Positions 1 to 20,000 of a DNA stretch of 20,000 nt are shown here, piece after piece. Numbering within the stretch: the stretch's first letter is position 1; each line of letters starts with the position of its first letter. This DNA is from Ancylonema sp. (lineage: Eukaryota): positions 49,417 through 69,416 of the forward strand of contig JBFLGF010000090.1 in NCBI GenBank assembly GCA_050230475.1, written 5' to 3'. The notes under the pieces are model-generated. The model saw only the letters and a list, made by a program, of their open reading frames with translations. It did not search any database and was not told the DNA's origin. The position numbers were made by a program, and so were the translations under genes.

Positions 1-4
1 ATTT

Positions 5-64
5 GCCCCTCATGGAGGTCTTCATGCCCCTCATGGAGGTCTCATGCCCCTCATGGAGGTCTTA
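5..64. repeat. Three tandem copies of a 20-21 bp unit, gcccctcatggaggtct(t)cat
   Basis: Read directly. Each unit contains the small inverted repeat cctc-atg-gagg. Confidence 0.9.
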
Positions 65-135
65 GATACCTCCGGCAAAGGCAGCAGCCAATCCAGTGCA
101 TATATGTGATATGGAACTCCATTATCACCATATCC

Positions 136-236
136 CTCTCATGCAATGTATCCGATGTTACATTGCATGGTTCCGATGTGGGGTACAATGCTCTTTCATG
201 CAATGGTTCCACTGTTACGTTGCATGGTTCCGATGT
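136..236. repeat. Two imperfect copies of a repeat with 57-bp period, each with an internal hairpin
   Basis: catgcaatgta (140-150) and tacattgcatg (159-169) form a perfect 11-bp inverted repeat. The second copy, catgcaatg...cgttgcatg, is at 197-226. Confidence 0.8.
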
Positions 237-274
237 AGAGTCTTTTGTGCTTCACTCTGAAGTAAGTAGCTCAC

Positions 275-415
275 CTAGTGTCGAGGACAAGTCCAGTTTC
301 CCTCCGGCACTCCTACCAGGGGTGGTGTTAATAAACACCAAGTGTGATACCCCTGGTTACACTTGTCGCACAGCACCATCCGTTTCGGGTAGGACTGCAA
401 CCCACAAACCCGGCA
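275..415 (-). pseudogene. PHD zinc finger at the C-terminus of the Gypsy integrase
   Basis: Manual translation: CRVCGLQSYPKRMVLCDKCNQGYHTWCLLTPPLVGVPEGNWTCPRH*. This has PHD spacing, the YHxxCL-xPPL-xxVP-xGxW-xC signature and His as the last ligand. It is frameshifted relative to ORF 328..510. Confidence 0.88.
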
Positions 416-800
416 TGTGCTGTCTCCCCGCGATCATACAACTCTGGGTAGACCCTCTTGTCTCCCACCGGTATAGTGCAGTGAGCAATGTGCTTCACTT
501 GCTCTTGCATTGTCGTCCCATCTCTACCCCCAAGAACTGCTATCCCTCAGTCCCTGAGCTCCACATCCTCAAGATGTGTGGCCTTGTGATGACCTCCAGG
601 GAGCTAGCCGTTGGCCGCTTCAGCAGCACGAAGTCTCCAACCTTGAACTTCGCCTTTGGCCTATCCCACCCTCCTCCACGGACTAGCTTGTACCTCTCCA
701 CCTCCCTTTGCTGGGCAATCGCCAGGTTCCTGAATGCCAGTGGCAGAACTTCCTGAAAGATCTGGCCCCTCCTATCTAGGAACACTTTCATGGCCTCCAC
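416..800 (-). pseudogene. Integrase C-terminal (GPY/F or SH3-like) region, frameshifted
   Basis: A..NL..AQQR...Y and FKVGDFVLLKR..RPHILR, typical of Gypsy integrase tails. Confidence 0.7.
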
Positions 801-2314
801 CCCTTGAGTCTCATCAAAGACTCTCTCCTCCTCGTCCTAGATCCGAGCTTGAAAGATCGGAAAAGCATGAAGTATGGCGAGTAGCCTAGTGACTTCTGCT
901 TGGACAGCCTGTAGCCCATAGCTACGTAAGGCTGCAGTTCATCCCACTGCTCCCCACCTCCCTCAAGCAAGCACTTCCTGAGTGCTTTCTTCATTGTTTT
1001 CACCATCCTCTCCGCCAACCCGTCTGACTGCGGGTGATCCCTGGCTGCAGTCCTGTGAGTGATCTCATGGCGGGCCACGAGTGTCTCAAACTCTCCTCGA
1101 AACTCACCACCCTGATCCGCAATCACCTCCCCTGGTGCGCCATACCTAGACAAGATCTGGGACTTGAACTGGTATGCCACCTCTTCGGCCCTCTTGGAGG
1201 TTGTTGGGATGAGCTCCACCCACTTGGTGAAATGCTCTATGCACACCAGCACATATTTGTTCCCCCTCTCCGTCTCCTCCATTGGCCCCGCAAAGTCTAC
1301 CCCCCACCTGTACATAGGTCCTTTGATGGGAAGCGGCTGAAGGTTCTTCCCAGACTCTCTGAAAGCACCCTTGCCCCGAGCGCAACTCATACACTCTTTC
1401 ACCACTTTCGCCACCATCTCCACCATGCCTCTCCACCAATAGGTCTTTCCCAACAAGTCTGCTACCCTCATGACCCCAAAGTGCCCCATCTCCTCGTGCA
1501 CTTTCTTCACCAGCCCCCCCCGCTCCCGCGGTCTTGGGATCACTAGCATCCTCCCTTTCTCTCCCACCTTGTACAGGTTGGTTCCCAGCCACCTGTACTT
1601 GGTCCCCCTCCGGTACACCCGATCTCTCTCCAGAGCATCCCACTCCTCACTGTGCTTGCCAGCCTGCAGGTACTCAAGCAAGTACTTGTCAGCCCACACC
1701 TCCCCCGAGGCTGCGTCAGTGGTCTCATCCACTTTCTTATGTTCCCCCACTCCTAGTGCCAAAAGAGTCATGGCTAAAAGAGTCTCGGGTCGGAAAGTGA
1801 TATCACCCCGGTCCCAGTCAGGAACCTCAAGTCCTCCTATGGAATCCATGGGAAACCTGGAAAGGCAATGTGCGTTGCCGTTCTCTGCGCCTGCCCTGTG
1901 CTCCACCTTGAAGTCGAACTCTTGCAGCAACAAAGCCCACCTCGCCAGCTTCCCCGACAGCTTCTTTGTCGACAGGATCCACTTGATTGGCTCATGGTCG
2001 GTCACCAGTGTGAACTGGTTTCCGATCACGTACTGCCTGAAATGTGAAGTCGCCCACACCGCAGCCAAACACTCCCCCTCAAAACTAGAATAGTTATTCT
2101 CAACTGGGTTGCAACTCCTGCTGGCATAAGCCACAACATAGTCCAGCCCCCGCTCGTCCTTCTGCCCAAGGACTGCCCCCATCCCCTTCTGACTCTAGTC
2201 AGTAGCAAGGTAGAAGGGCTTGCTCCCATCTGGTCGCCTCAGCACCCCAGCCGAACACAGCGCCTCCTTCAGCTTTAGGAAGGCCTCCTTCTGTTCCCCC
2301 CCTCACTCCCAGAC
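788..2314 (-). pseudogene. Gypsy RNase H and integrase core
   Basis: RNase H: LATD*S..GMGAVLGQ, VVAYASR, YSSFEGECLAAVWA, LVTDHEP. Integrase: H-EEMGH...CMSC zinc finger; VDFAG, ADQGGEF, GLAERMV (D-D-E). Confidence 0.95.
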
Positions 2315-3200
2315 CTATCCTTTCCGCAACAGCTTGTTGAGCGGAAAGGCAATGGTGTTGAAGTGCGGTACAAACTTGCGATAGTAGCTGAATAACCCCG
2401 AAGCCCCCCTTAGCGATGACAAGTTTGTAGGTGCTGGTAGATCCTTGACTGCCTTCACCTTCTCCTCCTGCGGCTGCAACTCTGCTGCAGTGATCTTGTG
2501 CCCCAGGAAGTCGATGCTCTCCACAGCAAATAGACACGTCCCTGGGTGCACATTCAACCCCGCTGCTCTGAGTCGTCTGAAGACCTCCTGCAGATGCTCC
2601 AGATGCTCCTCCAGCGTGCTTCTCCACACGATGATGTCATCGATGTAACACCTCGCAAATGTCAGCCCCCCCAGAATGTGGTCCGTCTGACGCTGAAAGT
2701 AAGGTGGCGCGTTCTTCAGTCCGAACGGCACTACGCACCACTCCCACAGCATCCGCCTGGCTCCCCAGAATGTTGTCTTGGCACGGTCCCTCCTACAGTA
2801 GTGGCATCTGATGGTACCCCGACCTCAGATCCAGCTTGCTGAAGATCTTTGCCTCCTTCATGACATCGAAGATGTCCTCTATCAATGGCAGCGAGTACTT
2901 GTCGACGGCGTCAGTGCATTGATCGGCCTGTAGTCCCCGCACTTTCTGAAGTCAGTGTAGTTCCCCTCATCGTCCTTCTTCTTCACCACCACAGTAGCCG
3001 AAGCATACTTGGTCTGGACTGATTTCCTTGATGAACTTCAGCTTCTCCAGCTTCTCGCACTGCTTCTCCACAAACTCCCACTCCTTTTCCCCGAGTTTCT
3101 GCGGCGGCCTGTAAACCCTCCCCTCCGACACCCCCCCGATGCTCATTGGCTCTCCCTTGAACTGCTCCAGATCCTCCATGCTGTAAGCAAAGCGACAATT
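2315..3200 (-). pseudogene. Gypsy reverse transcriptase, several frameshifts
   Basis: PFGLKNAP, YIDDII, IDFLGH, GLFSYYRKFVPHF. N-terminal VYRPPQKL...EKQCEKL is in ORF 2967..3374. Confidence 0.95.
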
Positions 3201-4391
3201 GTTCTCCCTCAGCAGCTCCAACACCAGCAGCTGGTCCCTTTCCTTTACCCCCCCCCCACCCTTGATTTTCTTAAAATTCTCAAAAAAAACAGGTTTTCGG
3301 TTTAAGATCCCACCCTTAGTGCTCACTCCTACCCCTGAGTGCTGGCTACCGTTCCCCCCAAACTCCCCCTGCACATCATTTTTTTTTTTGTTTTTTTATG
3401 ATTTTCTGAAGTTTTCAGTGGGGCCCCAACCTCCCCACCCCCAACCTCCCCCAACCGCTTCCTCTCCCCCAGAGCAGCCATCTGCAGCTCTGTAGGCCTC
3501 AGTTCTGCTCCAAATCCAGAGTGCAATAGTGCTATGGATATCTCTTTCCCCCATCTATGGTTTTTTAAATCCATGACATCCCCCCCTAAAACCCCTGTCT
3601 GAAAATCCAAATCTTGGATTTCAGATCTGGCCAACTCCAATTTACACTCAGAGTAGTAAAAAGGGCTGGAAATCTTTGATATTGAGTTTCTGAGTACACG
3701 AAATGGCTTGTTGAAATTTCCTACTCTATCCTCACTACCAGCTCGAAAACCTGCTTCTGGTTCCAAAACCCTAGGGTTTAACAGCACTTTTTCTGAATTC
3801 TGGACAGAATTCTGGCCTTTTTGACTGCCTGAGATACCTAGCTCTCCTTGGCTGCTAACTTGTCCAAATTCTGATCTGATTAGTGATCCTGGCTCCTTAG
3901 ATACTTCACTACCAGATCTCAAAGTTACAGATTTTTCTGGATGGAGGTGCAAAAACGCCCCATCAGCATCTCCCTCAGCTATTTTTTTGTCGGGAAGGCC
4001 AGCTGGCAATGATAAATGTTGCCCTGAGCTTCTCCCTTCGAATATGGCTGCACCCAGCTTGTTTCCTGGTTCTTCTTAATGCCCTCTAGCTGATCCCAAA
4101 TTTTCAGCTTAGCATCGAAGTCTAGCAGCGCGCGCACCACTTTTTGTGCCTCTGCCATCTCCCCTCCCCCTATGAGCCCAGCATACATTCCGTATGCTGG
4201 AGGGCTGTCCTTTTCGATTTCACTCCTCTGGTTTTCACCATTGTGTTCCTGATCTCCCCAGCTCCATTCTCGTGAGCCATTGCCAGTTGCCCCCAACCGT
4301 GCCCCAACCGCACCCTCCCCGCAGTCCCCCTTGAACTGCGGCTGGCCCCCCCCAACCCCTGATCTTTTAGGGGTTGGGTGGCAGCGCCTCC

Positions 4392-5400
4392 CTAGCTGAT
4401 CATGCTGGCTTCCCACAGAGCCCCCAGCCACCTCATGGTGTTGCCCTCCATGCATTTCCCCAGCCTCTCCGCTCGCTGCTTCGCGGAAACCACCTCCGCC
4501 CGAGTGGTCCCCTCAGGGAACCCCAACAGCTGCTCTTTCTCACCCACATCTGGCTCCTCCCGCCTGTGGGTGTTGGTGTTGTACACCTGCCCCTCCCCTG
4601 GGCTCCCATCCTCCTGGGTTCTGAAGGCATAGCTCCCCTGAAAGCTGACGATTGTCGGCATCAGGATCCTCTCCTCTCCTCGGAAATTCCTCACGACCTG
4701 AGGTGGGAAGTCGGTGAAAGCAGGTGCCTTGGGGATGTGATACTCCCTCAAGATCTCCCTCAGTGGTGGGCTTGGCTGCAGATCCTGCGGAATGGCCTCT
4801 TGCAGCTCATCCCGGTCCATAGCGTTCGTCCAACAGTAGCGCAGCCGATGGCTGGCTGCCCCCAACCCCCCTGCGTCCAGAACCACCCCCAACCCAATAA
4901 AAGACTCTATCAGGCATCTTTGCCAACTCCCCGGGAGAGGTATTTTCCAGAAAGTAGACTGGCGATCTCTCCTGGTGGTGCTGCAGCCACCCAAGGATGC
5001 GCATCAAGTCGTAGAAATACTGAAACCGCTTGTCTGCGTACCCCTCCTGCTTGCCTCCCCTGCTGATACTCTGGCACTCCGAGCCAGCCCCCACTATGTC
5101 GACCTCCCCGTTTTGCGCAATGAGATTCACCAGCGCCATTTCTCCGATCAGCCCCACATCCTGTGGCAGCCTCTTCTCCCAGCCAATGAATGCCCCCCTG
5201 TTGATCTGGCCTGGGTACTCAAGGATCAGCTTCTCGATCACCCCCTCGTTGATCCGGTTGGAGATGAGGTCTCTCTCGGCGCACGACACCAGCCGCACCC
5301 TCAACCCTGCCGCCAAGGCTGTTCTAGTGGGCCCCAGACCGATGCCACTGAAAAGTTCGACAATATGCACTCCCTCTTCTGGTGCCTCCTCCCTCAGGCT
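4392..5400 (-). pseudogene. DNA (cytosine-5) methyltransferase domain, DNMT3-like, inside the Gypsy polyprotein; one frameshift near 4935
   Basis: Motif I ELFSGIG (~5341-5364), II AERD, III QDV, IV GSECQSIS (Cys at 5074-5076), VI FLENT (~4941-4953), VIII AASHRLRYCWTN (~4821-4856), IX EKEQLLGFPEGTT, X QRAERLGKCM. Motifs are in the unpermuted I-X order. Confidence 0.9.
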
Positions 5401-6385
5401 CACGACCCGTGTGTTGATCGGAGCTGCTCCCCTCACTGGTGGTCCCACCCACTTCCAGGATCTCTCGACTCTGACCTTTCCCAGCAACCTCTCCCTTGCC
5501 TTCAGCAGCCTCAAAGCTGCAGCCGCTCGCCGTGCTGCATCCGCCTGCTGCACTGCTACCACGCGAAGATCTGCCTCACTAGGCTCACCAGTCAGCTCCC
5601 CCAACCGCGGTTGGGACTAACTTTGCTGTGCGCTCTTCACAGCCACCCCCCCCACCATCACCCTAGGGTCAGGTTGCACCACACTCGTGTGCTTCCCCCA
5701 TCCCTGAATATGTCCCTCCTCCCCCTTTCCCAGCATCTGCTGCGGTTGGGGGCCCCAGCCGCGGTTGGCCCTCCTCCAGCTGCGGTTGGGTGGTTGCCCC
5801 CCCCTCCCTTGGGCTATCTCCCAACTCTATGACCGCCATGCCCTGAAATTTCTCCCAGGCTTCCCCATTACCCCCCCCATACCCCTCCTCAGCCACCCCG
5901 TACTTTTTCCACCCATCTCCTCCTCCAGCAAGAGGTTGGCCTCATCGAGCGCCACCCTTCGAGCTATTTCCACATCCATATCCCACCCCCGTGCCGCATG
6001 CTCCTTCATCTGCTCCAATAAAGTGAGCAGTGCCAGATTCTGCACCTCCCCTTCCCACTCTAACTCCACAACCCCCTCACTCTCACCCCCCCCATATCCC
6101 CCTCCTCAATCTCCTGCCACTCATATGAAGTGTCACCGTCCGCATCCTCGAATTGACCCTCCTCAGCCTCTAAGCTGTAGAGATCAGACTGCATATGAAC
6201 CTCTCTTGACCACTCCCTGTGGATCCTACCCAACGCCATGGCCTACATAGGCAGTGTTGAGCGCAGTGCCCTGCACTCCTCCTCTGTCATCCTCCCCTGA
6301 GCCGGTACAACCCCTCTGATCTTTCCCCCCCCCTCAGCCGCTGAGCGATGGTAGTCTACTCTCCATTTGAAAACCTCTACCCAAC

Positions 6386-6832
6386 CTATACCCCCCCAAT
6401 AGGCCCAATAACCTCCATCCCCAGTAACACGTCGTAACACTCAGTGTCCACTACGAAAGCTACCTCATTGTACGTGGTCTCGTACCGTGTTCCAGCAGCC
6501 AGGGTGAATCTCATCTTCTCCCTTGTCATGCGCTGACCCGTCGCCATCTTCCTTGTTGCCGAAACGAATGACACCCCCACTGTCAACTGCCCCTCTGTGA
6601 GCCCCATACGTCTAGCCATCCGAGGGCTAATCATTGGTTTAGTAGCCCCCGAATCCAGAATCACCATGCCCAATGGGGATATGCCATTCACCACCAACTC
6701 CGTGTTTTTCACTGGAAGTGTAGCCACACTCCAGGGTCCCTTCTGCCCTCCCCCTTCTACCCATCCCGCGTGTAGTGGATCCCCCTCCACTAATGACCTC
6801 AACCCCCCGTACTGATCCATATTTTTCTGCAA
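6386..6832 (-). pseudogene. Gypsy aspartic protease
   Basis: VILDSGAT active site (~6641-6661) and a downstream YDVLLG motif. Confidence 0.9.
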
Positions 6833-8061: not shown

Positions 8062-9386
8062 CTAACACTGCTCCTCGGTGTGGTTCTGTTTGTCACAAAA
8101 CCTGCAAGGTGCCCCCTCCGTCATGTGCACCCGTGGCATGGACATGGCCACCCCTCTCGCCGTCCCAAATCTGGCGGCGAAGGGTGCTTTCATACCCTTC
8201 CCGCGTCTTGCTGTTGCGGTCTTGAGTGCCTCCCTCAGCCTCCCCGCCGTCTCCTCCCTCGTCCCCGTGGGACAGTTGGCAGCGCGGTGCCCCAGTCTGT
8301 CACAAGTGAAACACTTGACAAGGCTTTTCCCCCCCATCCCTCCTCCTCCAGTCCCACCCCCTCCACTCCCAACCCCCCCTCCTCCTCCATTCCCATCCCC
8401 CCCCCCTCCTCCTCCCTCTCTCGGCTTCCCTTTCCCCTCCTCCCGTCCCCCTCCCTCCTTTTCCCCCTCTTTTTGACGCGGCAACAGGCCAAACATCCGC
8501 AACTCCGCATCCCGCGACATCTGCGCTCTCTCCTGGGAGGTGGCAATATCTCTGACATCTGCCATACTTATCTTGGGAAGTCCTCCTCCATCCCGGCGCT
8601 GCTCCTCAGCCCGAAGCTTTGGGCCGACCACCCCCCGCAACCCTCCCAGCAAACAATCCTCATAAAAGCACGCTGCCTGACGCGCGCTGACCATATGTGG
8701 AACGAGGTTAACAGTTATCCGGAACAAGTCCTCGTAGATGGAGTTTGAGGTAGCTCCTGCTGGTGGTCTGAAGTTCTGGAACTCCCCTAACCATTCTGAC
8801 CCCGCGGTTGCAAATCGCGTCCTCAATCGCTGGAAGAATCCCTTGAGATCAGAGCTTCCAGAGGTACTGCTGGAGGCCCCTGAAGCCCTGAGGTGAGTCG
8901 CATCAGGTGCCAACTCGCCTTCTGCCCATAGTATACGCGCCAGACCACTCTCACTATTTCCACCACTTGCGCTATTGCCAACGCTGGGTTATCACGGTCA
9001 TGCGGGTCAATGGACCAGCGGTAATAATCTAGAACCAATCTTGCCTGCCCCTCTACGTGGCCTGACATCCGCTTGAGGACCTCAAACTGACCATATTCCC
9101 CACTAAGGAATTTTTGGAGATTACGCTTCTCTGCCTCCCACATATATTTCATATTTTGGATAAATTGGCGCTGCGCCACCCCTCCTCCTCCTGAATACTT
9201 GGGCACAACCAAAGTACTCTCCATCTCTGCCTCCTCCTCTCAACCCGCGAAATACACCAACGAATAAGCCGCAAACATAGGTACCGGAGGTACAAAAGCC
9301 GGTGGTTGATATATGACAAGCTGAAAATTCTCCACTTCGGCCTCTCCCTCTGAGTTTGCCGAACCCTGAGAATCAACTGATCCTGC
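8062..9386 (-). pseudogene. Gypsy gag, main part, with two CCHC zinc knuckles
   Basis: CFTCDRLGHRAANC and CRFCDKQNHTEEQC (CX2CX4HX4C), preceded by a Gly-rich linker. Stop at 9240 and a frameshift near 8900. Confidence 0.85.
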
Positions 9387-9833
9387 TTTTAGCAATGTTA
9401 CGTGATAGGTGTGCACGATCGTGTTAATCTTTCCGTACAAGGAACTTCGTCTCTCAAAGATGATCAATGACAAGTATAGTGTTGGAAGAATTATTATTGA
9501 ATGGTCGGCATCGTGTAGGTATACCACGATGCCTCATCCAAAACAAGAATCTACAAAGCGTGCCGACGGTCGTATCGACGGACCGTCGGCCTATCAAAAC
9601 ACAACAACAGTCAGATCCTGACACCGGCACATGCCGGACAGTCTGACAAGACATAGTCTAGATTCGGAACCATCTAGACCGCACGTGCTACAAACCGGCA
9701 CAACGAAACGTCATATTCGGGTGCCCGGACATAAGTCCGGCCCCTCAATATAAGCACACCCTAGGAACCGGTGTTACACTAACAGTCTGGACTAGCACAC
9801 TTGCAAACATGGCTATCCGATATTATTCCTACA
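9387..9833 (-). repeat. Copia 3' LTR (447 bp)
   Basis: Direct repeat of 14997-15469. Begins TGTAGGAAT on the minus strand. Confidence 0.95.
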
Positions 9834-9842
9834 CACCCCCTC
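9834..9842 (-). promoter_or_regulatory. Copia polypurine tract
   Basis: GAGGGGGTG lies immediately before the 3' LTR on the minus strand. Confidence 0.85.
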
Positions 9843-10199
9843 GGATGCCATGCCAAGTTTGGCATTGAGTCAGCACCAAGGGACTACCCTATCTACAGCT
9901 AAGTCATGGCGAAACCATGACATACGTAATATGAATGGCAACACATATGCCAGAATTCATGAACAACTGACCACTCTAGATGCAAGCAGATCTGCAACTT
10001 TTCAGGTGTCCTTAAGTGTTTTCAGGGCAGAAAAAAGAGTGGGGTGACTTAGCTGGATAGGCGAGCGTAGAGAGCCCTCCACAGGTGCATTTTGCAAGAA
10101 GAATAACAGAACATACACCCCCTGCCAAACATAGCATGGCAGCCGAAAATCTCCTAGAACTTAATGTGCACCCCCATTTCAGTGAACCCTCCCAAAACC

Positions 10200-11673
10200 T
10201 ATAGACTTTCCGTGTCTGTCAAGTAAGACTTGTGGAAGAGCCTTAGTGAACTATCGGCTGGTTGATTGGCCCCTGCCAGAGATACACATACTTCAGCCTG
10301 CCAGTTTTGTGACACTCTCTCACCACCCAGTGGTACACCACAACAACATTGAAATGCTTGGCCTTCTGGCGCTGGACTGGGTTCTAGATCATTGAGAGTG
10401 CGGCTGTTGAGTCACTGTAAACTGTAATTTAATTAGGGAGTTTGAGCTCATGCAGGAGCGACTTCAGGTAACAGTATTCCTTAGACACACTACAGGCAGC
10501 AATATATTCAGCCTCTGCTGTACTCTGTGCGCGACTGTAGACTCTGTGTTTCTGTGACTTCCAGCTCAATGCAGTTCCCCCAACAGTAGTGACCCACCCT
10601 GTGACCGACTTCCCACAGTCATACTGCAGCTATTCCAACTAGCATCACACCAACTAGCATCACAACCTCTTCCGCGCCTCACGTAGCATATTCCGTGATC
10701 CACTCTTCCTTTTAAATATCTAAACAGTTGGTGTAAGGCTTTGATGTGAGCAGTCCCAGGATTCCCCATGTGTTTTGCCAGTACCCCCAGTGCATGCGCA
10801 ATATCCGGTCTAGTGTTTTTCATTGCATAAATGAGTGACCCAATTTTTCCCCGGAATTCAGTTATCTGTACAGGTGTAGGGGGAGTTAGAGGTTCATCTT
10901 CTTGGTGAAATGTCAGTCCAGGTGGTAAGGGTAGTTTTGTAGGGTTACAGTTTGCCATGCCAAAACGTTCCAAAACCTGCTTTATGAACCCTCCCTGATG
11001 CAACGTGAGCACCCCTTGTTGTCTGTCCCTTTTCACTTCCACCCCCAGGATATGGGTTAGGGCCCCAAGATCCTTCATTTTGAATTTCCGAGATAGTTCC
11101 TGTTTGAATGCTTTAATGACCATGGTGTTAGGACCAACTATCACCTGATCATCTACGTGTATCCCCACTATGATCCGTGACTGTCCTGTGCCCCTGGTGT
11201 ATATGCATGTGTCCATAATGCACTGTTTGAACCCTATAGTGAGCATGAAGGTTGTGAACATCTCACCCCAGACCTTGCTACTCTGTTTCAGTCCGTACAG
11301 TGCCCCCCTCATTCTCAAAACTTTTCTCTCTGCCCCTCCCTCTATCTCCATAAATGGTGAAATTTTCATATATACTTCTTCGGCCAGTCTTCCATGCAAG
11401 AAAGCAGTCACCACGTCCATCTGTTCAATTTCCCAACCCTCTTGATTCGCAATAGATAGTAGAATGAGATATAGAGGTACTATCTACTACAGGTGCGAAT
11501 ATTTCATTATAATCAACTCCTTCTTGTTGTAGAAAACCCTGAGCGACCAGTCTGACTTTATATACTTTCAAGGGTTCCCGTGGGTGTGTATTTTGTTTTG
11601 AATACATATTTGCACCCCACAGCCCTTTTACGTGGTGGAAGTTCACACCCTCGAAAGTGTTGAATTCCCCCAA
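10200..11673 (-). pseudogene. Copia reverse transcriptase and RNase H
   Basis: RT: KVRLVAQGFLQQEGVDYNEIFAPV, MDVVTAFLHG, LYGLKQSS, HVDD, TRPDIA. RNase H: WCDASW, SWKSQK, STAEAEYIAA, YSDSTAAL, KAKHF. Frameshifts and stops present. Confidence 0.95.
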
Positions 11674-12374
11674 GCTTTTCAGCTCCTCCTGGATAGCAAC
11701 TAACCACTGATACTAGTGTGGCCTCGTCATGGCCAGGTCAGCGTCAAAGGGTCGGAGGAGTCAGCAGACATGGACACCATGCAGAATCCAGGGTCAGAGG
11801 GGCCGTTGAAGCCTGTGAAGAAGCATGTTGCTTCCCAATCGTCGTCCTGAATGGCTGCTTCCAGCGCCTGGTCATCGAACTCCTCTCCATCATATCAAAA
11901 GACATCCCCAAAGTGGGCAAAGTTTGCCCTCCTCCTTCCCATTACTCTCTCAGCTATGCTCCCAGCATTCACCCCTTGCCCCCCCTCTTCATCCCCTCCT
12001 TGAACTTCCTCCTCCTCGCCTGCCACACCTACGTTGTTGACCCAGATTGGCTGTCAGACAGGCTCAATCACAGCGATGGGGACCTCAGCAGCTGGTGGTG
12101 GCGGAAACTGTAATGCTGGGATCTGGGCTCTTGGGTTGTTGTGGGCGGCTGCTGCTGCTAGCATTGCTGCTGACTGCTGCTGGTACTGCTGCTGGCGTTG
12201 CTGCTCTCACTGCTGCTTGCCCTGTCACCCCTCCAGCCTTAGGCTCATCATCTGTGTCGGGGACCGGCTGGAGAAAGTGTTCATCTGCTTTGGCCTCGAC
12301 CTGGGGAGCTCTCCCCCCCATGAGTCTCGGGTACCCCGGTACTTCCTCAAAGACACGGACGTCTGTCCGCACCA

Positions 12375-13286
12375 TCACACCGGCTCTGAGCGGGTCGAAG
12401 ATGTTGTAACCAGCTTGATCTGCTGCCAGCCCAATGAAACCCCAAAAGCAGTCCTGGCAGCATACTTGTCCCCTTGTTTATTTTTATCATGCCCAACTTT
12501 CAAATACTGCACTAGGCAGCCAAATGTGTGACTTCTGTTCAGTTTGATTTGGCGTCCCGTCCACTTTTCAATAGGTATCCCCCTTGTCAATGAACTAGTG
12601 GGGTAGCTGTTCCTTAGCCAATTTGCATGCATTAGTGCCACATCCCAGTATGATTTAGGCAGTTTAGACCACATCAGCAAACATCTCATCTTCTCCATCA
12701 GTGTTCGGTTCAGCCTTTCACACATACCGTTCTGCTGAGGACTATAGGGGGCAGTCAGTTCATGTTTGATGCCTTTATCCTCACAATAGCCTTTCCACTC
12801 CTTGCTGGTATATTTCCCTCCTCCATCTGTCCTGATCGACTTTAAACGGCAGTCCTGACTCAACCTCTAGTTTCTGTCAGTGATGCGCGTTTGACTGAGA
12901 GCATCGCTCTTGTGCTTGAGAATAGATACTGTTGACAGTCTAGAATTGACCTCTATCCCTGTCTGAGCATAATCAAACCCTCCGTGCATTGATCTGACAC
13001 ACACCAAAAGGATCAGATCTAGATGCAACCTCCCCATTTTTGGCATAGTGGTCACATCATCGCTAGCCATAGCATGCCCCCTCTGTCCCATTTTCCCCAT
13101 ACAGCAGATCACACAATCCTTGACCACAGTCAACTCTTCCTGACTCAGTCTCGGTATGTCCCCACGTCTGGCCATGTTTGACATGGCTGGTATACCAGGG
13201 TGACCCAGCTTGCCATGCGAGAGCACTATGGACAGATTTGCTTGCAGACCAGATGAACCAGGCATGATGATAGATGCATGCAGCAA
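12375..13286 (-). pseudogene. Copia integrase
   Basis: HGKLGH...CVIC zinc finger; LHLDL, IRTDGGGKY, PQQNGMCERLNRTL; FGCLV. Confidence 0.93.
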
Positions 13287-13339
13287 TGACAGACCATTCC
13301 TCTGCCTGCTGACATCAGCCCATTTCTGTCCATTTTTAG

Positions 13340-14782
13340 TCAGTGGACGTGCAGAGCAGTGAGAGGGACGACGAAGAAGGAGTCGTCGTTCTTCACTCGA
13401 ACGTGCACGAAGCCTGTCCCCTTGACCTTGTGGGGCGTGCCATCAGCCGTGTGGATGAATGAATGGTGCATCAAGACGTTGGTGTCGTACTCGACGAAGT
13501 GGTCTTTGTTTGTGAAGACGTGATCGGTCGAGCCTGAATCAAGCCACAGATGCGAGCAATCAGTTCCAACTGCCATAGCAATTCGTGCATCAAATGAGAA
13601 TGCTGCATAAGCCAGGGATTCGGATGCATCAAAAGGTGTGTCTGAACGTGCAGCAAGTCGAGCCTCAGCTTGGTCACGAAGATTAGAATCAGGTGCAGCC
13701 AATGCCAGGTCAGATCTACGCTTCATGCATTCTACCAATGTGTGTCCAAGCTTATCACAGTATCTGCATTTTGGTTTCGGACTGCCACTTCCCTGGCCAG
13801 CCGATCTTCCCCCTCCCCCTTGCCGTTGGTGTCCACACTGCGACAGCTTGTGGCCGATCTGGTTGCAGCCATGGCACCTCATTTGCGGACGTGTAGGGCA
13901 GTCCGATTTTAAGGTGGCCATACTGGTTGCAGCCGTAGCACTGAAGTTCTCGTCAGGTCGCGACTTCCGGGACCGCCACTCCCACCTGGTCGACACTTGG
14001 GCCAGCTCCGGAGCTGCCCAAGTAACCCCCTTTTCCCACGAAATTGGCCTGCTGCCCTCCCGGCAACGCCCCTCTCCTCTTCCGGTCGTTGCAGACCTCC
14101 CGTCGATCGCCAGCTGACAAAGTGCTGACGGCAACGGCCTGCGGGATCGTGAAGAGTGTTGGCGCACAAACTGCCCAAGACATCACACTCTCCCGCGCGC
14201 TGTAGCGAGTGTTGAGGGAATTTCAGAAAGTTGATCGTCTGCTTCGCAAGCTTGACTGGCTCTCCCAGATGCCCTAGACGATAGTGCAGCTCCTGAAGCC
14301 GCTTAACGTAGTCGCTCAGGTCCTCCGCCTCTCCCATGATAATCGCCGTGAGCTCAGCCTCAGCGTTGGCGATCTCAATGGCTCCCTGAATGTCGTAGAA
14401 GGCTTTCAGGGCGTCCCACATATCCGCTGCAGTCTCGCAATTTCGTACGTGCGTTAGCTCCCCCGTCTGGAGGTGTTTGACGATGTACGCCATTGCAGCG
14501 ATATTCTTCTTCGACCAGACCTCTCGAAGGAGAGTCTGTCGACCGATGAGCTGGGTGCGTGCCGTGACCGTTCGAGCGACGTCCGCAGCATCCAGTGCAT
14601 CGAGCTCGTCCTGCGTGAGTAGTGGAGACACGACAGGCCGCTTGCCTCGGGGATTTGCTCCAATCCATGACAATGTCATGCAACTCCTTGTCAGCCAGAC
14701 CGAACTTAATTTTAAAAGCCCAGCCCTTGTAGTCTGCTCCTGTGAAGACCGGAATGTATGACTTTTCCGTCATGTTAGGCAA
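13340..14782 (-). pseudogene. Copia gag (two CCHC knuckles) and protease
   Basis: IPVFTGADYKGWAFKI N-terminus; CETAADMWDALKAFY; CHGCNQIGHKLSQC; CRYCDKLGHTLVEC; WLDSGSTDH. Frameshifted across three ORFs. Confidence 0.92.
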
Positions 14783-14982
14783 CAGCTAGATTCTTTTGAT
14801 GATCGGCTCTCAGCTGCTTTCTTGAGCGTGTTTCGTGCAGCGCAGCTCACACCTCAGTCACTGGCAGCGCAATTCGAAGGATTACGTGCAGTACTTAATA
14901 ATCCCAACCTCAGAGTCTCTTTGCAGCGAATCGCGTGGAATGCCTGTAGGTTATTGACACAGCGTCTTTACCTAGACCGCCT

Positions 14983-14996
14983 GTGGGCCCATAACC
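14983..14996 (-). promoter_or_regulatory. Copia primer-binding site complementary to the anticodon half of tRNA-iMet
   Basis: GGTTATGGGCCCAC abuts the 5' LTR. This is the half-tRNA priming type of Drosophila copia, Ty5 and Volvox Osser. Confidence 0.9.
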
Positions 14997-15469
14997 TTCT
15001 AGCGATGTTACGTGATAGGTGTGCAAGATCGTGTGAATCTTTCCGTACAAGGAACTTCGTCTCTCAAAGATGATCATTGACAAGTATTGTGTTGGAAGGA
15101 AGGTTGGAAGAATTATTATTGAATGGTCGGCATCGTGTAGGTATACCACAATGCCTCGTCCAAAACAAGAATCTACAAAGCGTGCCGACGGTCGTATCTA
15201 CGGACCGTCGGCCTATCAAAACACAAAAACAGTCAGATCCTAACAACGGCACATGCCGGACAGTCTGACAAGACATAACGTCTAGACTCGGAACCATCTA
15301 GACCGCACGTGCTACAAACGGCACAATCGCAACGTCATATTCGGGTGCCCGGACATAAGTCCGGCCCCTCAATCCTCCTAGGAATCCTACCACCGGTTAC
15401 ACGGACAACAACACTAACTAGTCTGGACTAGCACACTAGCAAACATGGCTATCCGATATAATTCCTACA
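14997..15469 (-). repeat. Copia 5' LTR (473 bp)
   Basis: Direct repeat of 9387-9833 with scattered substitutions, a short duplication near 15100 and a divergent block at ~15374-15415. Confidence 0.95.
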
Positions 15470-15473
15470 CTTG

Positions 15474-15579
15474 CCCTGGAATCAGATATATTGCTCGATG
15501 ATTCACTACCACCACCGCCTCCTCCACTATCCACTCTCCGCACCAAACGTCTGTTCTCGTCGCGGGACGAGGCAGACAT
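15474..15579 (-). pseudogene. N-terminus of the Gypsy gag, separated from the rest by the Copia insertion
   Basis: ATG at 15579 gives MSASSRDENRRLVRRVDSGGGGGGSESSSNISDSR, which joins in frame across the TSD to AGSVDSQGSANSEG at 9386. Confidence 0.8.
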
Positions 15580-15688
15580 GGACTGCGTGACTCAGAATGA
15601 AACTAAAACTACCACCTTGGGTCGTTCAATTTTAACTACGCGCTGAAAATTTGACTCAAAATTTGGTTTTGATTTTTTTTCTAGCGTA

Positions 15689-15702
15689 GCATTACGCCAG
15701 AG
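15689..15702 (-). promoter_or_regulatory. Candidate Gypsy primer-binding site, self-priming type
   Basis: CTCTGGCGTAATGC follows ...AGAGTCA, the putative LTR end. 15689-15703 is the exact reverse complement of 15894-15908. Confidence 0.55.
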
Positions 15703-16696
15703 TGACTCTACTGGGCAAGATATCAAGCTCTGTCTTTAGACGCGTCGAACGCACTATCGTACGCAGAAAATGATCACCGATACGATATATGGCATTCGCA
15801 CAACGATATCAGCCTTTAACATCGCCATAGCCAAAGCTCAACGCAATCACAATACGACACGTCAACGCTCTTGCCAAAGCTTAGGTGGTATGTACTCTGG
15901 CGTAATGCAGCCAGAGTGCTCCAGCATCAGAATACATAGTCCGAAAGTCCAACAAGGCACTTCCGACTCACTTGTACTATCCGTACGCTAGAATGTAATC
16001 TACATCGTACGCATGCGTCCGATCGAACACATTCAGTCCAAGCATATTCCATCCTTAGCCGTAATCGAATACGATAACAATCGGCCAATCACATTCCTGC
16101 CAGCATGTCACTACATGGCCCCTCAACCCGGGAGTCGGGCACGTTTCGCTTGGACGTCTGTGGCCGTTGTGACGGTTGTGGCTTTTTGACGGCCGCTATG
16201 TCGAACACAAATAATACGGGCGCGGAAGTAAGTCCTGACTTCCATACTTCCGCCATACTTCGGCCGTACTTCCGTCTCCCCGCTACAGCAATCGAATATT
16301 GATCGCTCTATCGAACAGTTAATATTCCGACGGGCCCCTGCGGGCTCCCGCACGCTGCCGCTATATCGCGAGCAAATAAATAACCCAGCCCCCAGCCGCC
16401 TACCGCCCTACTGCAGACCGCATGCAGACCGCATGCTAGCGGCGTCAACCGTACCCGGGTCAATACCCGGCCGGGACTGTACGGCAGACACAGGCCGCAC
16501 GTGCGACTGGAATAAGTATGACACATAGCCAATTGCATGAATGCTTTCTAGTTTCTCCGCTGACATGTTTCTGAGCGAATGAAACTCCTCGGAGTGCACG
16601 TGCAAGTTAGGTTCAATAGTGGAAGTACGACCTCTTAAACGTGTATCCCATACGTCTAGGTCCGCATTCTGGTATGCGATTTCGTCGACCTAGTCA
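15703..16696 (-). repeat. Candidate Gypsy 5' LTR; partner LTR not in the window
   Basis: CpG-rich non-coding block upstream of gag, with TGACT...AGTCA termini possible at 16696/15703. An alternative outer end is at 16755. Confidence 0.4.
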
Positions 16697-16855
16697 CTGA
16701 AGTGTGACGTTTGTCAACAATGTGGGGAGATGAAAACCGCTTGGTATGAAAGTCATATGTGCTCAAGAGCATGCATGCACGCAATCAGGAACCGGTAAGA
16801 GATATCCAACTAATCCAACTTGGGAAGTTGGAAACAATAACAGCAAAAAGTGTAA

Positions 16856-16877
16856 TTTTTTTTTTTTTTTTTTTTTG
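16856..16877. repeat. Poly(T) tract, about 22 nt
   Basis: Read directly. Confidence 0.9.
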
Positions 16878-17850
16878 AAGTATTAAATATTAAAAATCCC
16901 AGCCACGTCCAGAATTAAAAGTTATGCCCGGTAAAAGTAACAACCTAAGTGCCGAGGCCTGTCTTGGTCCCAAGAACGCAGTCTATAATCAGCCGATGCC
17001 GATATCGGGTAACTATGAATACACATCATTCTTAAATGTTGGGACTTTTAAGGATATGGTGTAGTGTCGCCAAATACGTCAACGGGGTGAAGGTACGTAC
17101 CGTACTGGCCATACATAATGACCCGGGTTGTCAAAAACGAATTCATTTTAGCTAATGAACTACCATACTACCCACCCGCGCACCCAGTATAACATTTACC
17201 AAACTTCTGAATAATGTGTATTATCTGACAACCCACATTATGGAATGACAAATATTTGAGGGTCAATTATGTATACGGAATATGATTGATTTGGAATACT
17301 GTTTTACCCAAAGTCAATTCAGCAAACATGCTCTACTTCACAACTGGATATCCATCCTTTACAAAAACATTTTTTTCGAGGTAGGTACGCTAGAAAACGG
17401 TTCACATACCGGTTCACCTATCACTTCACTTCTCGGTTCACATATCATTCTGGCATGAGCCTGATTCCACAGATTGACATGTTCCAATCATTCCAAAACC
17501 CAAGTGCTTATCGATGCATTCAAGCTTCTGAGGGCAACACAAATCTCTCACACCATTCAATGGCAATGCCGGCATTCCGTAAAAGGCATCCTGAATAAGT
17601 GGTTCAACCTCATGTATCCATCGCTTACAGATGCAGATCTTGATCTTGACCCCTTCACCGAGCTTTGCAATCAATCACACAATTTTTCTGACTCCTCTCA
17701 GGGCTCGTTACCAGACTACGGCCGCTAATGGATTCTGGCACATATGTTGCAACCGACGGACGATATGAACATATAAGTTGAAGCAACAGGCATGATGGAA
17801 GCAGTACCCCCTGGCCTACTTCCCTGTGAATCTCGTCCGCGTCCCTCTCT

Positions 17851-18042
17851 CTAATAATCCTCCACCAATGTCAGCAGCCCCTTCACCTCCGCCTTGAGTT
17901 CCTCGTACTTCTGTTGAATCGGCGAAAGGCGCGTGTTGGTTTCGCTGGCCGGGAGTTTCTTTTCGTAGCACTCCACCATCACCTGGTGCTTCTGAAGAAT
18001 GGCGCCCACCTTATCCTTCTCCTTTGCCACCAGAGCTTGCAC
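17851..18042 (-). CDS. RPN1: Ribophorin I (OST subunit 1), terminal exon
   Basis: CAG acceptor; VQALVAKEKDK...LLTLVEDY*; resembles the plant RPN1 cytosolic tail. Confidence 0.88.
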   Translation of the reverse strand: MQALVAKEKDKVGAILQKHQVMVECYEKKLPASETNTRLSPIQQKYEELKAEVKGLLTLVEDY

Positions 18043-18156
18043 CTGGGAAAAACAACGGCAAAAGAAAGATGTTTTGTGTCCGACCGTCCGACTCCCTCCT
18101 TCCCTCCGTCGGTACCCCCTTTACCAACAAACCTGTGGACATCAGACGATCCTCAC

Positions 18157-18381
18157 CTTGGGAAGCATGGGAGGAGGGTTGGGGGCCGATTCTAGAGTTG
18201 CCAGAAGGGCCTTCATGTCGTTCCCAGACTCTCTCAGGGCCTCCTCTGCACTTCTGCGCGCGGATTTGGCAGCCTCAATGTCCCCCGTCCGGCTCAGTGC
18301 GACCGTGGCCCCGTCCAGCTTGTCTGCGATGGAGGAACGGATGGCCACAAACTTCTGGAGTCTCTGAGTGGCGTCCACGGC
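18157..18381 (-). CDS. RPN1: Ribophorin I exon
   Basis: AG/GT bounded, 75 codons; ALSRTGDIEAAKSARRS resembles the plant LSRTGD motif. Confidence 0.9.
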
Positions 18382-18726
18382 CTGGAAAAGAAATGCGGAC
18401 AGAGGAGTGGGATTCAGTCGGGCGGACAAACGCAACAGAATGACGGGATGAGTAACGACAAAGCATGGCATGAGGGTGAAGTAATGTATCAAACGAGAGA
18501 AGGAGATGGACATGAGCATCACGAGTGCACACTCAATGTTGAGCCCGACCTCTGTTGGGCTCAACATTGAGCCTGCCTCGACACCCTGCAGACTGCTTTG
18601 AGGTTGTTGCTGGGAGGGGCAGGATAGTAGTTGGAAATCTGTGTGTGTACCGTCTGAAACCGTTTCTGGTTGACCTACGATTGCCTTCCACCTCGTAAAA
18701 ATAGGAAGTAGCGTCGGAAGGGAGAA

Positions 18727-18773
18727 CACAAAACAAAAAAAAAAAAAAAAAACAAAAAAAAAAAAACAAAAAA
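18727..18773. repeat. Intronic A-rich low-complexity tract
   Basis: Poly(A) interrupted by single C residues. Confidence 0.85.
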
Positions 18774-18798
18774 GGGCAGATCACGACGAGATAGGCAC

Positions 18799-19050
18799 CT
18801 GCTCGTTCTGCATCTTTGTGTGATACGTTGCCGTGTTCTTGGAGATGGTCAAGTCCGTCCTCGAGTAGGCGATGAGCGCGAGGAAGAAGAGCAGGAAGGC
18901 GCCCACCAGAAGAAACGGCTCCACCAGTAGGGCCGCGGAGGTGAAGGAGTAGGAGACCTGGAAGAACTGGGTGGAGTGCTCGGGGATGACGTTGCGCTTC
19001 TTCAGGACCACCACTGGCCGTCCCACCGTGTCAAGGTTGGTGTATTTCAC
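18799..19050 (-). CDS. RPN1: Ribophorin I exon including the transmembrane helix
   Basis: AG/GT bounded, 84 codons; VKYTNLDTVGRPVVVLKKRNV...EPFLLVGAFLLFFLALIAYSRTDLTISK. Confidence 0.95.
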
Positions 19051-19357
19051 CTGAAAAAACGGAAGAGGGCAAGGGGATGGGGGCAGGGAGGGAGCGTATG
19101 GACTTATGCAGTAGGGGCACAGGGTATATGAGGTGAGGAAATTGAAGTTTATGCATGGGTGGAACATTGGATGGCCAGAAGATGGACCAATCGCGGACAG
19201 ACTTTGACATCACTTCATCCTCTGGAGGGGGCGACGGCAGAGTCAATGAGACTTGAGAGTTGTGCGATCTGGAACGAGATTTGCAGAGAATGGACATTGG
19301 TGGTAAACATTACGATGAGTTCTTGCCAGTCGAGCGGCGTTGAGGTGTCAGTCTTAC

Positions 19358-19426
19358 GTCTTGATACTGCTCTGTGTCAAAGGGGACGATGGCCTGCAAG
19401 TCCCTGGACCCCTCTGGCAACACCAC
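19358..19426 (-). CDS. RPN1: Ribophorin I exon
   Basis: CAG/GTAAG bounded, 23 codons; VVLPEGSRDLQAIVPFDTEQYQD, containing the conserved LPEG. Confidence 0.92.
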
Positions 19427-19745
19427 CTGCACAAAAACTTGAGAGGAGTCTTTAATGATCCGACCCATCTGCCCTCACCTTACACTCTTTACCACAAACT
19501 GCGCCACACTGCTTTTCTCAGATTCTTTCTTTGAACTACTCCAGTGCTATGTCTCATGAATGCTCCGCAGGATCTGTAAGCGACGCAGCCAGTCGACCTC
19601 CAATCTCTCCCGTGAAAGACTTGAAGTTGTCCAAGCATCCCATGACTGGCTGTGATGAAGACAACAGAGCAGTGCGATGTCTTTCAACCTAGATTGACCT
19701 CCGCCTACTAGCTTTCATCAGGTGCCAGGTGTCAGCGCAACGGAC

Positions 19746-19925
19746 CTTCACCACCAGCTCCTCGATGACGACATCCAGAATGGGTGTGCCATACGTGGCA
19801 TTCACCACCCTTCTTCCGTCCAGGCCGCGGAATACCAAGTCCTCGAGGGGGACGCTGTATCCGAGGGTGAATGTGATGGACCACCCCCCGAGCAGAGGGT
19901 AGCGGGGCTCAAACTCCAGGTCCGT
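19746..19925 (-). CDS. RPN1: Ribophorin I exon; upstream exons lie beyond the window
   Basis: AG/GT bounded, 60 codons; LEFEPRYPLLGGWSITFTLGYSVPLED is the ribophorin I signature. Confidence 0.95.
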
Positions 19926-19934
19926 CTGGACACA

Positions 19935-20000
19935 GAGAAAAAAAGAAAGAAGAAGGAGAAGGAGAAGGAGAAGGAGGAGGAGGAGGAGGAGGAGGAGGAG
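19935..20000. repeat. Intronic (GAAGGA)n/(GGA)n microsatellite, forming the polypyrimidine tract on the minus strand
   Basis: Read directly, next to the acceptor at 19926-19928. Confidence 0.9.

What the first reader, a model, noticed from the sequence alone, without database searches (positions are those of the whole stretch)
275..415. Hidden PHD finger ends the integrase where chromoviruses carry a chromodomain
Seen: a frame absent from the ORF track gives CRVC-x10-LCDKC-x3-YHTWC-x3-PPL-xx-VPEGNWTCPRH*, a near-canonical PHD with His as the last ligand. Known: PHD fingers read the H3 tail, typically the K4 methylation state. From memory, a PHD-tailed integrase occurs in the Selaginella Selgy clade of REXdb. 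Inference: it targets integration to a particular chromatin state.
Basis: partly seen in the sequence, partly recalled or inferred. Interest (0 to 1): 0.75.

Follow-up and report, generated by a model that had tools for sequence, protein, structure and literature searches.

The report
PHD-tipped integrase of methyltransferase retrotransposon
A broken copy of a jumping gene with relatives in green algae ends its integrase with a real PHD zinc finger and also carries a DNA methyltransferase; the finger likely grips histone H3 tails that lack the promoter mark and would steer new copies away from active promoters, in a family that is already partly described.

Summary
The motif is real: minus strand 415-278, Pfam PHD E=2.8e-11. 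It ends the integrase of a decayed Ty3/gypsy element (gag-protease-C5 DNA methyltransferase-RT-RNase H-integrase-PHD). Three frame breaks separate it from the integrase in this copy; other copies differ in length at those places. Of 120 listed relatives, 109 carry the PHD after the integrase in one ORF, about where chromoviruses carry a chromodomain. The His last ligand is shared by all 10 closest relatives, so it is not decay. The Selgy link is unsupported. The element falls in a non-chromovirus clade with Klebsormidium polyproteins, matching KnitGypsy-Dnmt3. The finger has no H3K4me3-type Trp (0 of 105) and is most like KDM5-PHD1/ATXR5/DPF fingers, so it likely binds H3 tails without K4me3; binding and targeting are untested. 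PHD-bearing Gypsy elements are published for Chlamydomonas, and this scan noted the PHD-plus-DNMT3 architecture twice before on other DNA. Real, moderately interesting, partly known.

The parts
275..415 (-). PHD finger (C4-H-C2-H) and stop codon; end of the polyprotein
   Evidence: PF00628 E=2.8e-11; PDB PHD hits to E=5.5e-12; motif and stop
416..860 (-). Integrase C-terminal arm: long helix, predicted SH3-like barrel and linker; frame breaks near 860, 564 and 415 in this copy
   Evidence: tblastn with intact relatives; length differences in other copies; five strands in the model of relative P0128; profile match to chromovirus C-termini up to the first SH3 strand
860..1537 (-). Integrase zinc-binding and catalytic domains, D-D-35-E present
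   Evidence: PF17921, PF00665; own profile; motif positions
1916..2302 (-). RNase H
   Evidence: PF17917 E=8e-32
2486..3242 (-). Reverse transcriptase, broken by stops and frame changes
   Evidence: PF00078; tblastn
3250..4290 (-). Spacer of about 1 kb between methyltransferase and RT, A+T-richer, longer than in P0009; role unresolved
   Evidence: Composition; tblastn gap; covered by contigs of other copies
4293..5454 (-). C5 cytosine DNA methyltransferase, DNMT3 type, one frame change near 4910; motifs FSGIG, SECQ, ENT, HRLR present
   Evidence: PF00145; 40-49% identity to P0009/P0010; motifs; homologous domain of L017 hits DNMT3A best, E=1.5e-11
6404..6748 (-). Aspartyl protease
   Evidence: tblastn to the Pfam-labelled protease of P0009
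8065..9239 (-). gag-like region with zinc knuckle at about 8269-8316, broken
   Evidence: PF00098 E=1.1e-4; frames
9386..15470 (-). Unrelated Ty1/copia element inserted just upstream of gag; it hides the left end of the gypsy element
   Evidence: LTR pair 88% over 478 columns; copia gag, integrase and RVT_2 hits

Best explanation
This is the PHD finger at the end of the integrase of a decayed Ty3/gypsy retrotransposon that also encodes a DNMT3-type methyltransferase, and the finger likely binds the free N-terminus of histone H3 that lacks K4 trimethylation, which would tether the integration complex to non-promoter chromatin. Shown: the domain order, the fusion in intact relatives, the clade, the conserved residues. 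Inferred: that the PHD stays on the integrase after protease cleavage, binds H3 Ala1/Arg2 through the conserved P-x-G-x-W pocket and the Asp after the third Cys, disfavours K4me3, and biases insertion as chromodomains do in chromoviruses. This copy cannot make the fusion.
For: PHD follows the integrase in one ORF in 109 of 120 listed relatives (120 of 202 hits were listed) and in 14 of 80 loci by profile. It starts 204-205 residues into C-terminal ORFs in which chromodomains start at 192-227 (19 of 41 non-PHD loci had a Chromo hit, none a PHD). The AlphaFold model of relative P0128 gives integrase, a five-strand barrel, a low-confidence linker (pLDDT 53) and a PHD at pLDDT 75-87. The position two before the His ligand is Gly in 89 and Trp in 0 of 105 motif matches; that H3K4me3 readers put their cage Trp there is recalled, the Trp residues themselves are named in PMC4225485. 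The best PDB hits are DPF2, KDM5B PHD1, ATXR5, Lid, KDM5A PHD1 and WSTF; none of the 60 listed (of 61) is ING, BPTF or TAF3. The KDM5B PHD1 contacts D328, P347, G349 and W351 are kept in the window finger, with Val at L325, by the alignment; the D328 position is Asp in 98 of 105. A PHD-bearing Gypsy in Chlamydomonas inserts 2.6 times more often between genes than expected, with selection not excluded (PMC9940879).
Against: No binding or insertion-site data were obtained. The K4-contacting acid of KDM5B (D308, four before the first Cys) is absent in all 10 closest relatives, although the window's upstream frame has Glu there. The loop between Cys2 and Cys3 is net basic in the His-ending group (mean +2.0, n=10, against -0.84, n=95), which does not favour a basic histone tail. 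The Met of the ING-type cage position is kept in 93 of 105. The only neighbourhood seen is about 8.5 kb (2.4 kb without the later copia insertion) from a host gene, which does not look like deep heterochromatin. The Chlamydomonas element lists PHD before INT in its legend, so it may be a different arrangement.
Confidence: 0.55

Rival explanations
1. The finger is a general nucleosome tether: it binds the H3 N-terminus without regard to K4 methylation, or binds DNA through its basic loop, and raises integration efficiency rather than choosing a chromatin state.
For: No acid at the D308 position in 10 of 10 closest relatives; basic loop in the His group; many UHRF1 and KAT6 fingers among the PDB hits, and their weaker K4 sensitivity is recalled.
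Against: The top hits include KDM5B PHD1, whose binding falls more than 15-fold with K4me3. The wider family often has Asp three before the first Cys (35 of 105).
Confidence: 0.25
2. The finger serves the methyltransferase: it stands in for the ADD domain that this DNMT3 lacks and directs methylation of the new copy or its flanks, with little effect on where integration happens.
For: DNMT and PHD share one ORF in 69 of 120 relatives, and in 66 the DNMT lies between RNase H and integrase. The catalytic Cys is kept in 85 of 87 aligned domains. DNMT3A's ADD reads H3K4me0 (PMC7311975). CpG o/e is 0.52 in the element against 0.86 at 15500-20000.
Against: In this element RT, RNase H and integrase lie between DNMT and PHD. 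The KnitGypsy DNMT showed no activity in yeast, a result its authors call inconclusive. Host methylation explains CpG loss equally (the copia element is at 0.64).
Confidence: 0.13
3. The finger reads H3K4me2/3 through an atypical cage and directs insertions next to active genes.
For: Met kept at the cage position in 93 of 105; this copy lies near a host gene; cnidarian retrotransposons carry PYGO-like, H3K4me-type PHDs (bioRxiv 2021.11.30.470311).
Against: Trp in 0 of 105 at the cage position; no ING/BPTF/TAF3 hit among 60 listed.
Confidence: 0.06
4. The motif is a chance frame or a captured host exon lying beside the element.
For: It is not in one ORF with the integrase in this copy.
Against: E=2.8e-11; co-linear with intact relatives; other copies differ in length at each break.
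Confidence: 0.01

Closest known systems
KnitGypsy-Dnmt3 of Klebsormidium nitens / streptophyte 'Gypsy-DNMT3' (PMC5890265: passages, section 10 and a supplement search seen, figures not seen; name also in bioRxiv 2026.05.21.726589, sections 7-8 read)
   Same: Gypsy pol with a DNMT3-type domain. K. nitens polyproteins P0024, P0027 and P0116 lie in the same clade (99* SH-aLRT), and P0027 has DNMT before RT as here. DIRS-like split repeats, as in that paper's Fig. 4 legend, occur in 3 of 13 related loci checked.
   Different: The window copy forms its own branch with the His-ending group (100*), not with the K. nitens sequences. 'PHD' occurs 0 times in that paper's main text and held supplements, but Fig. 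4c, which I could not see, may draw one. The ends of the window element could not be examined.
PHD-bearing Gypsy elements of Chlamydomonas: Gypsy-7a_cRei (PMC9940879, passages seen) and REM1 (Perez-Alegre 2005, not held; only its citation seen)
   Same: A PHD accessory domain in a green-algal Gypsy, with the same proposal that it limits harmful insertions.
   Different: The Gypsy-7a legend lists RH, PHD, INT and no methyltransferase; a protein with that order (P0115) falls outside the window's clade. That REM1's PHD lies in a separate antisense ORF is recalled, not checked.
Chromoviruses (MAGGY, Tekay, Reina, Tcn1, Chlamyvir)
   Same: A histone-reader module at the same place after the integrase core and SH3-like domain.
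   Different: No chromodomain here; separate clade; chromodomains read methylated H3K9, whereas this finger is predicted to avoid K4me3.
EpiLTRs (bioRxiv 2026.05.21.726589, sections 7-8 read)
   Same: An LTR element combining a histone reader with a cytosine methyltransferase.
   Different: EpiLTRs have a chromodomain, a DAM and a DNMT4-related DNMT, and the authors separate them from Gypsy-DNMT3.
REXdb Selgy and Phygy (PMC6317226: passages and supplementary file 3 read)
   Same: Non-chromovirus Ty3/gypsy of early-diverging plants. Phygy's size range (7.7-10 kb) fits related loci of about 9 kb.
   Different: No extra domain is listed for either; Selgy is 4.4-6.7 kb. No sequence comparison was possible.

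Membership tests
PHD finger (PF00628) | Profile score above the curated cut-off | tested here: met
   43.7 bits against 24
PHD finger (PF00628) | Eight zinc ligands, C4-H-C3 | tested here: met
   Seven canonical; the eighth is His in the window and 10 of 10 closest relatives, Cys in the other 95 of 105. Zinc binding by the His is inferred, not measured.
H3K4me3-reading PHD (ING/BPTF/TAF3 type) | Cage Trp two residues before the His ligand (position recalled) | tested here: not met
   Gly in the window; Trp in 0 of 105 relatives
H3K4me0-reading PHD (KDM5B PHD1 type) | Ala1 pocket (P-x-G-x-W) and Arg2-binding Asp after Cys3 | tested here: met
   Alignment to 2mny with residue roles from PMC4225485
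H3K4me0-reading PHD (KDM5B PHD1 type) | Acidic residue before Cys1 that binds Lys4 | tested here: inconclusive
   Absent at that position in 10 of 10 closest relatives; Glu in the window's upstream frame
H3K4me0-reading PHD (KDM5B PHD1 type) | Measured preference for unmodified K4 | not testable with these tools
   Needs a peptide-binding assay
Ty3/gypsy LTR retrotransposon | Order protease-RT-RNase H-integrase; Ty3-like sequence | tested here: met
   best PDB hit of P0010 is Ty3 Gag-Pol, E=1.2e-93
Gypsy-DNMT3 (KnitGypsy-Dnmt3 kind) | DNMT3-type C5 methyltransferase inside pol with catalytic motifs | tested here: met
   Motifs in the window; the homologous L017 domain hits DNMT3A best; the window's own half-domain gave only weak HhaI and DRM-type hits
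Gypsy-DNMT3 (KnitGypsy-Dnmt3 kind) | Same RT/RH/INT clade as K. nitens elements | tested here: met
   48-row clade, SH-aLRT 99 (quick tree, 67 of 170 rows, no bootstrap). That P0027 is the published element is inferred from its species and domains.
Gypsy-DNMT3 (KnitGypsy-Dnmt3 kind) | DIRS-like split repeats A-coding-B-A-B | tested here: inconclusive
   Complete in L008, L010, L013 (3 of 13 loci checked); the window element's 3' end runs off the window and no terminal repeat pair was found in it
Chromovirus | Chromodomain at the integrase C-terminus and chromovirus clade | tested here: not met
   No Chromo hit in the window or P0128; separate side of a 99* branch
REXdb Selgy | 4.4-6.7 kb, no extra domain | tested here: not met
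   At least 9 kb with DNMT and PHD against the table; REXdb may not have scored PHDs
REXdb Selgy or Phygy | Phylogenetic placement with REXdb references; PBS and TSD | not testable with these tools
   No REXdb sequences available; element ends not in the window

The most novel reading that the evidence does not exclude
A green-lineage-wide retrotransposon clade has rebuilt the DNMT3A logic from parts: an integrase-borne PHD reads unmethylated H3K4 in place of the ADD domain, so one particle both lands in promoter-free chromatin and methylates its own new copy.
Probability: 0.15. Interest if true: 0.75.

Novelty: new variant of a known kind. Interest (0 to 1): 0.4.

Why it matters
Chromodomains are the textbook case of a retrotransposon reading histones to choose its landing site. 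This clade puts a different reader in the same slot and pairs it with a DNMT3-type writer in most relatives found. The finger's residues give a specific, cheap test: H3 N-terminus yes, K4me3 no. If true, it is a second solution to gene avoidance, by reading the absence of an active mark. The pieces are each in print and this copy is dead, so the gain is a sharper description and a testable prediction rather than a new kind of system.

Tried and rejected
No whole genome is held for the window, so intact copies, ends, TSD and insertion sites could not be read. A complex prediction of the P0128 PHD with an H3 tail gave no verdict (score 0.00); it is not used either way. No RNA holder was listed; not used. 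A FastTree run placed the His group as sister to the RH-DNMT-INT group, but IQ-TREE did not, so that relation is left open; support labels may be shifted by re-rooting, so one search is the one cited. The careful tree did not finish. 14 proteins and 17 loci were dropped from the 170-row tree for missing domains. Self-comparison found no terminal repeats of the gypsy element in the window. The host-gene search gave a family but no species name. The chromovirus profile comparison stopped at the first SH3 strand, so SH3 homology rests mainly on the model. The fold search returned only integrases. REM1 and a PHD review are not held. Paper searches: PHD+Selgy+retrotransposon 0 hits; Gypsy+DNMT3+PHD+moss+retrotransposon+integrase 0 hits; searches listed no paper whose title or abstract start describes an integrase-terminal PHD in Gypsy-DNMT3. 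PMC8226300 has no mention of PHD. Subscription papers, figures, theses and bioRxiv supplements were not seen and may hold this. Alignment A4 was not used. CpG depletion was rejected as evidence of self-methylation.

Full report
Observation. It scores 43.7 bits on Pfam PHD, E=2.8e-11, so it is not chance. The frame is only 52 codons between stops, which is why it is missing from the ORF track.

The element. Reading down the minus strand there is a gag-like region with a zinc knuckle, a protease, a C5 DNA methyltransferase, a spacer of about 1 kb, RT, RNase H, integrase and the PHD. The integrase keeps D-D-35-E and the methyltransferase keeps its SAM-binding, catalytic Cys, EN and RxR motifs. 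The copy is broken at many places. Between integrase core and PHD the frame changes near 860, 564 and 415. Contigs of other copies differ in length at those three places in all 4 runs laid (at most 3 samples). The family has many diverged copies: 2,129 contigs of run X1 lie on the first 1,100 bases; this is not a copy number. A copia element is inserted upstream of gag, and the 3' end runs off the window, so the ends are unknown. No genome is held.

Relatives. A search with the RNase H-integrase ORF among longer proteins gave 202 hits, 120 listed. By my profiles, 109 of 120 have the PHD after the integrase in the same ORF, 1 has it before the integrase and 10 have none; several of the 10 end early and two are annotated partial. 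73 of 120 also carry the methyltransferase, 69 together with the PHD. Named relatives are Coleochaete scutata, Klebsormidium nitens, Pleodorina, Tetrabaena and Cymbomonas. The host is therefore likely in the green lineage, but it was not identified.

The His ligand. All 10 closest relatives (56-59% identity) end the finger in His; the other 95 of 105 motif matches end in Cys. The window and the six His-ending relatives included form a 100* branch. The His is a clade trait, not decay.

Position and clade. In C-terminal ORFs cut at the same point of the integrase, the PHD starts at residue 204-205 (2 loci) and chromodomains at 192-227 (19 of 41 other loci). An AlphaFold model of relative P0128 (mean pLDDT 81.8) shows integrase, a long helix, five strands, a flexible linker and the PHD. 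A profile comparison with chromovirus C-termini aligns up to the first SH3 strand. So the title's positional claim holds. On RT, RNase H and integrase, the PHD/DNMT elements are separated from the chromodomain-bearing loci by a 99* branch (quick tree on 67 of 170 rows, SH-aLRT only). Relations inside the clade are unresolved.

What the finger probably reads. The best solved relatives are DPF2, KDM5B PHD1, ATXR5, Lid, KDM5A PHD1 and WSTF; no ING, BPTF or TAF3 finger is among the 60 listed. Methyl-K4 readers use a Trp cage and KDM5B PHD1 does not (PMC4225485, passages and section 11 read). At the position I recall for that Trp, 89 of 105 relatives have Gly and none has Trp. The Ala1 pocket and the Arg2-binding Asp of KDM5B are kept. 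Against a strict K4me0 reader, the K4-binding Asp is missing in the 10 closest relatives, their loop is basic, and the cage Met is kept in 93 of 105. I commit to an H3 N-terminus binder that disfavours K4me3 and tethers the integration complex (0.55), with a K4-blind tether as the main rival (0.25). No binding or insertion data were obtained.

Comparison with print. The Selgy recollection is not borne out: no PHD in the REXdb paper's text or held supplements, no extra domain and a smaller size for Selgy, though REXdb may not have scored PHDs. The element matches KnitGypsy-Dnmt3 (PMC5890265). K. nitens proteins share the clade, a relative's methyltransferase is DNMT3-like, and 3 of 13 related loci checked show the DIRS-like split repeats named in that paper's legend. 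'PHD' is not in that paper's text or held supplements, but its figure was not seen. PHDs in green-algal Gypsy and other elements are published, with the same targeting idea (PMC9940879, PMC8557442, PMC6673714, bioRxiv 2021.11.30.470311; passages seen). Two earlier notes of this scan describe the same architecture in other genomes; I saw them after reaching this reading, and they are not independent evidence.

Verdict. This is a His-ligand variant within a partly described Gypsy-DNMT3 clade. Interest 0.4.

Noticed in passing
P0028, P0029, P0071, P0109, P0118 and others (tails after the PHD): 44 of 104 relatives have more than 200 residues after the PHD. In 11 the tail has an SP[PW][WF] motif, often with a DPF-x-G-x-G motif; weak PF02086 hits and Atlas look-alikes with minority N6_Mtase/MTS labels (14% and 26%) suggest a second, amino-type DNA methyltransferase. 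DNMT3 + PHD + such a domain is not in the EpiLTR sections read.
   Followed up: partly
P0022-P0114 subset: The DNMT sits between RNase H and integrase in 66 of 120 relatives and before RT in 6; the former form one branch (99*), implying a domain move. Some also carry a G-patch.
   Followed up: partly
L008:2515-11460, L010:5465-14555, L013:6203-15523: Integrase-encoding elements with DIRS-like split direct repeats A-coding-B-A-B; how they prime reverse transcription is unexplained.
   Followed up: partly
P0106: Weak chromodomain hit (E=9e-5, below cut-off) after the PHD.
   Followed up: no
P0115: PHD between RNase H and integrase in a protein outside the main clade, suggesting a separate PHD gain.
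   Followed up: partly
window 9386-15470: Ty1/copia element nested just upstream of the gypsy gag; LTRs 88% alike.
   Followed up: partly
window about 17850-19910, minus strand: Intron-containing host gene of the ribophorin I family (PF04597).
   Followed up: partly
window 1-245: Short tandem and near-tandem repeats downstream of the PHD (about 20-nt units at 1-60; 49-nt pair 136-184/193-241), variable among copies.
   Followed up: no
P0001-P0008, P0011, P0012, P0018; window 3250-4290: Many close relatives are called as ORFs starting shortly before RT, without the DNMT; pol may be split into two ORFs in part of the clade.
   Followed up: no
P0157 (cluster of P0012): A member is labelled as from an uncultured cyanobacterium, probably eukaryotic DNA in a metagenome bin.
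   Followed up: no
L081-L118: 38 viral-collection contigs encode proteins starting with a near-canonical histone H3 tail.
   Followed up: no
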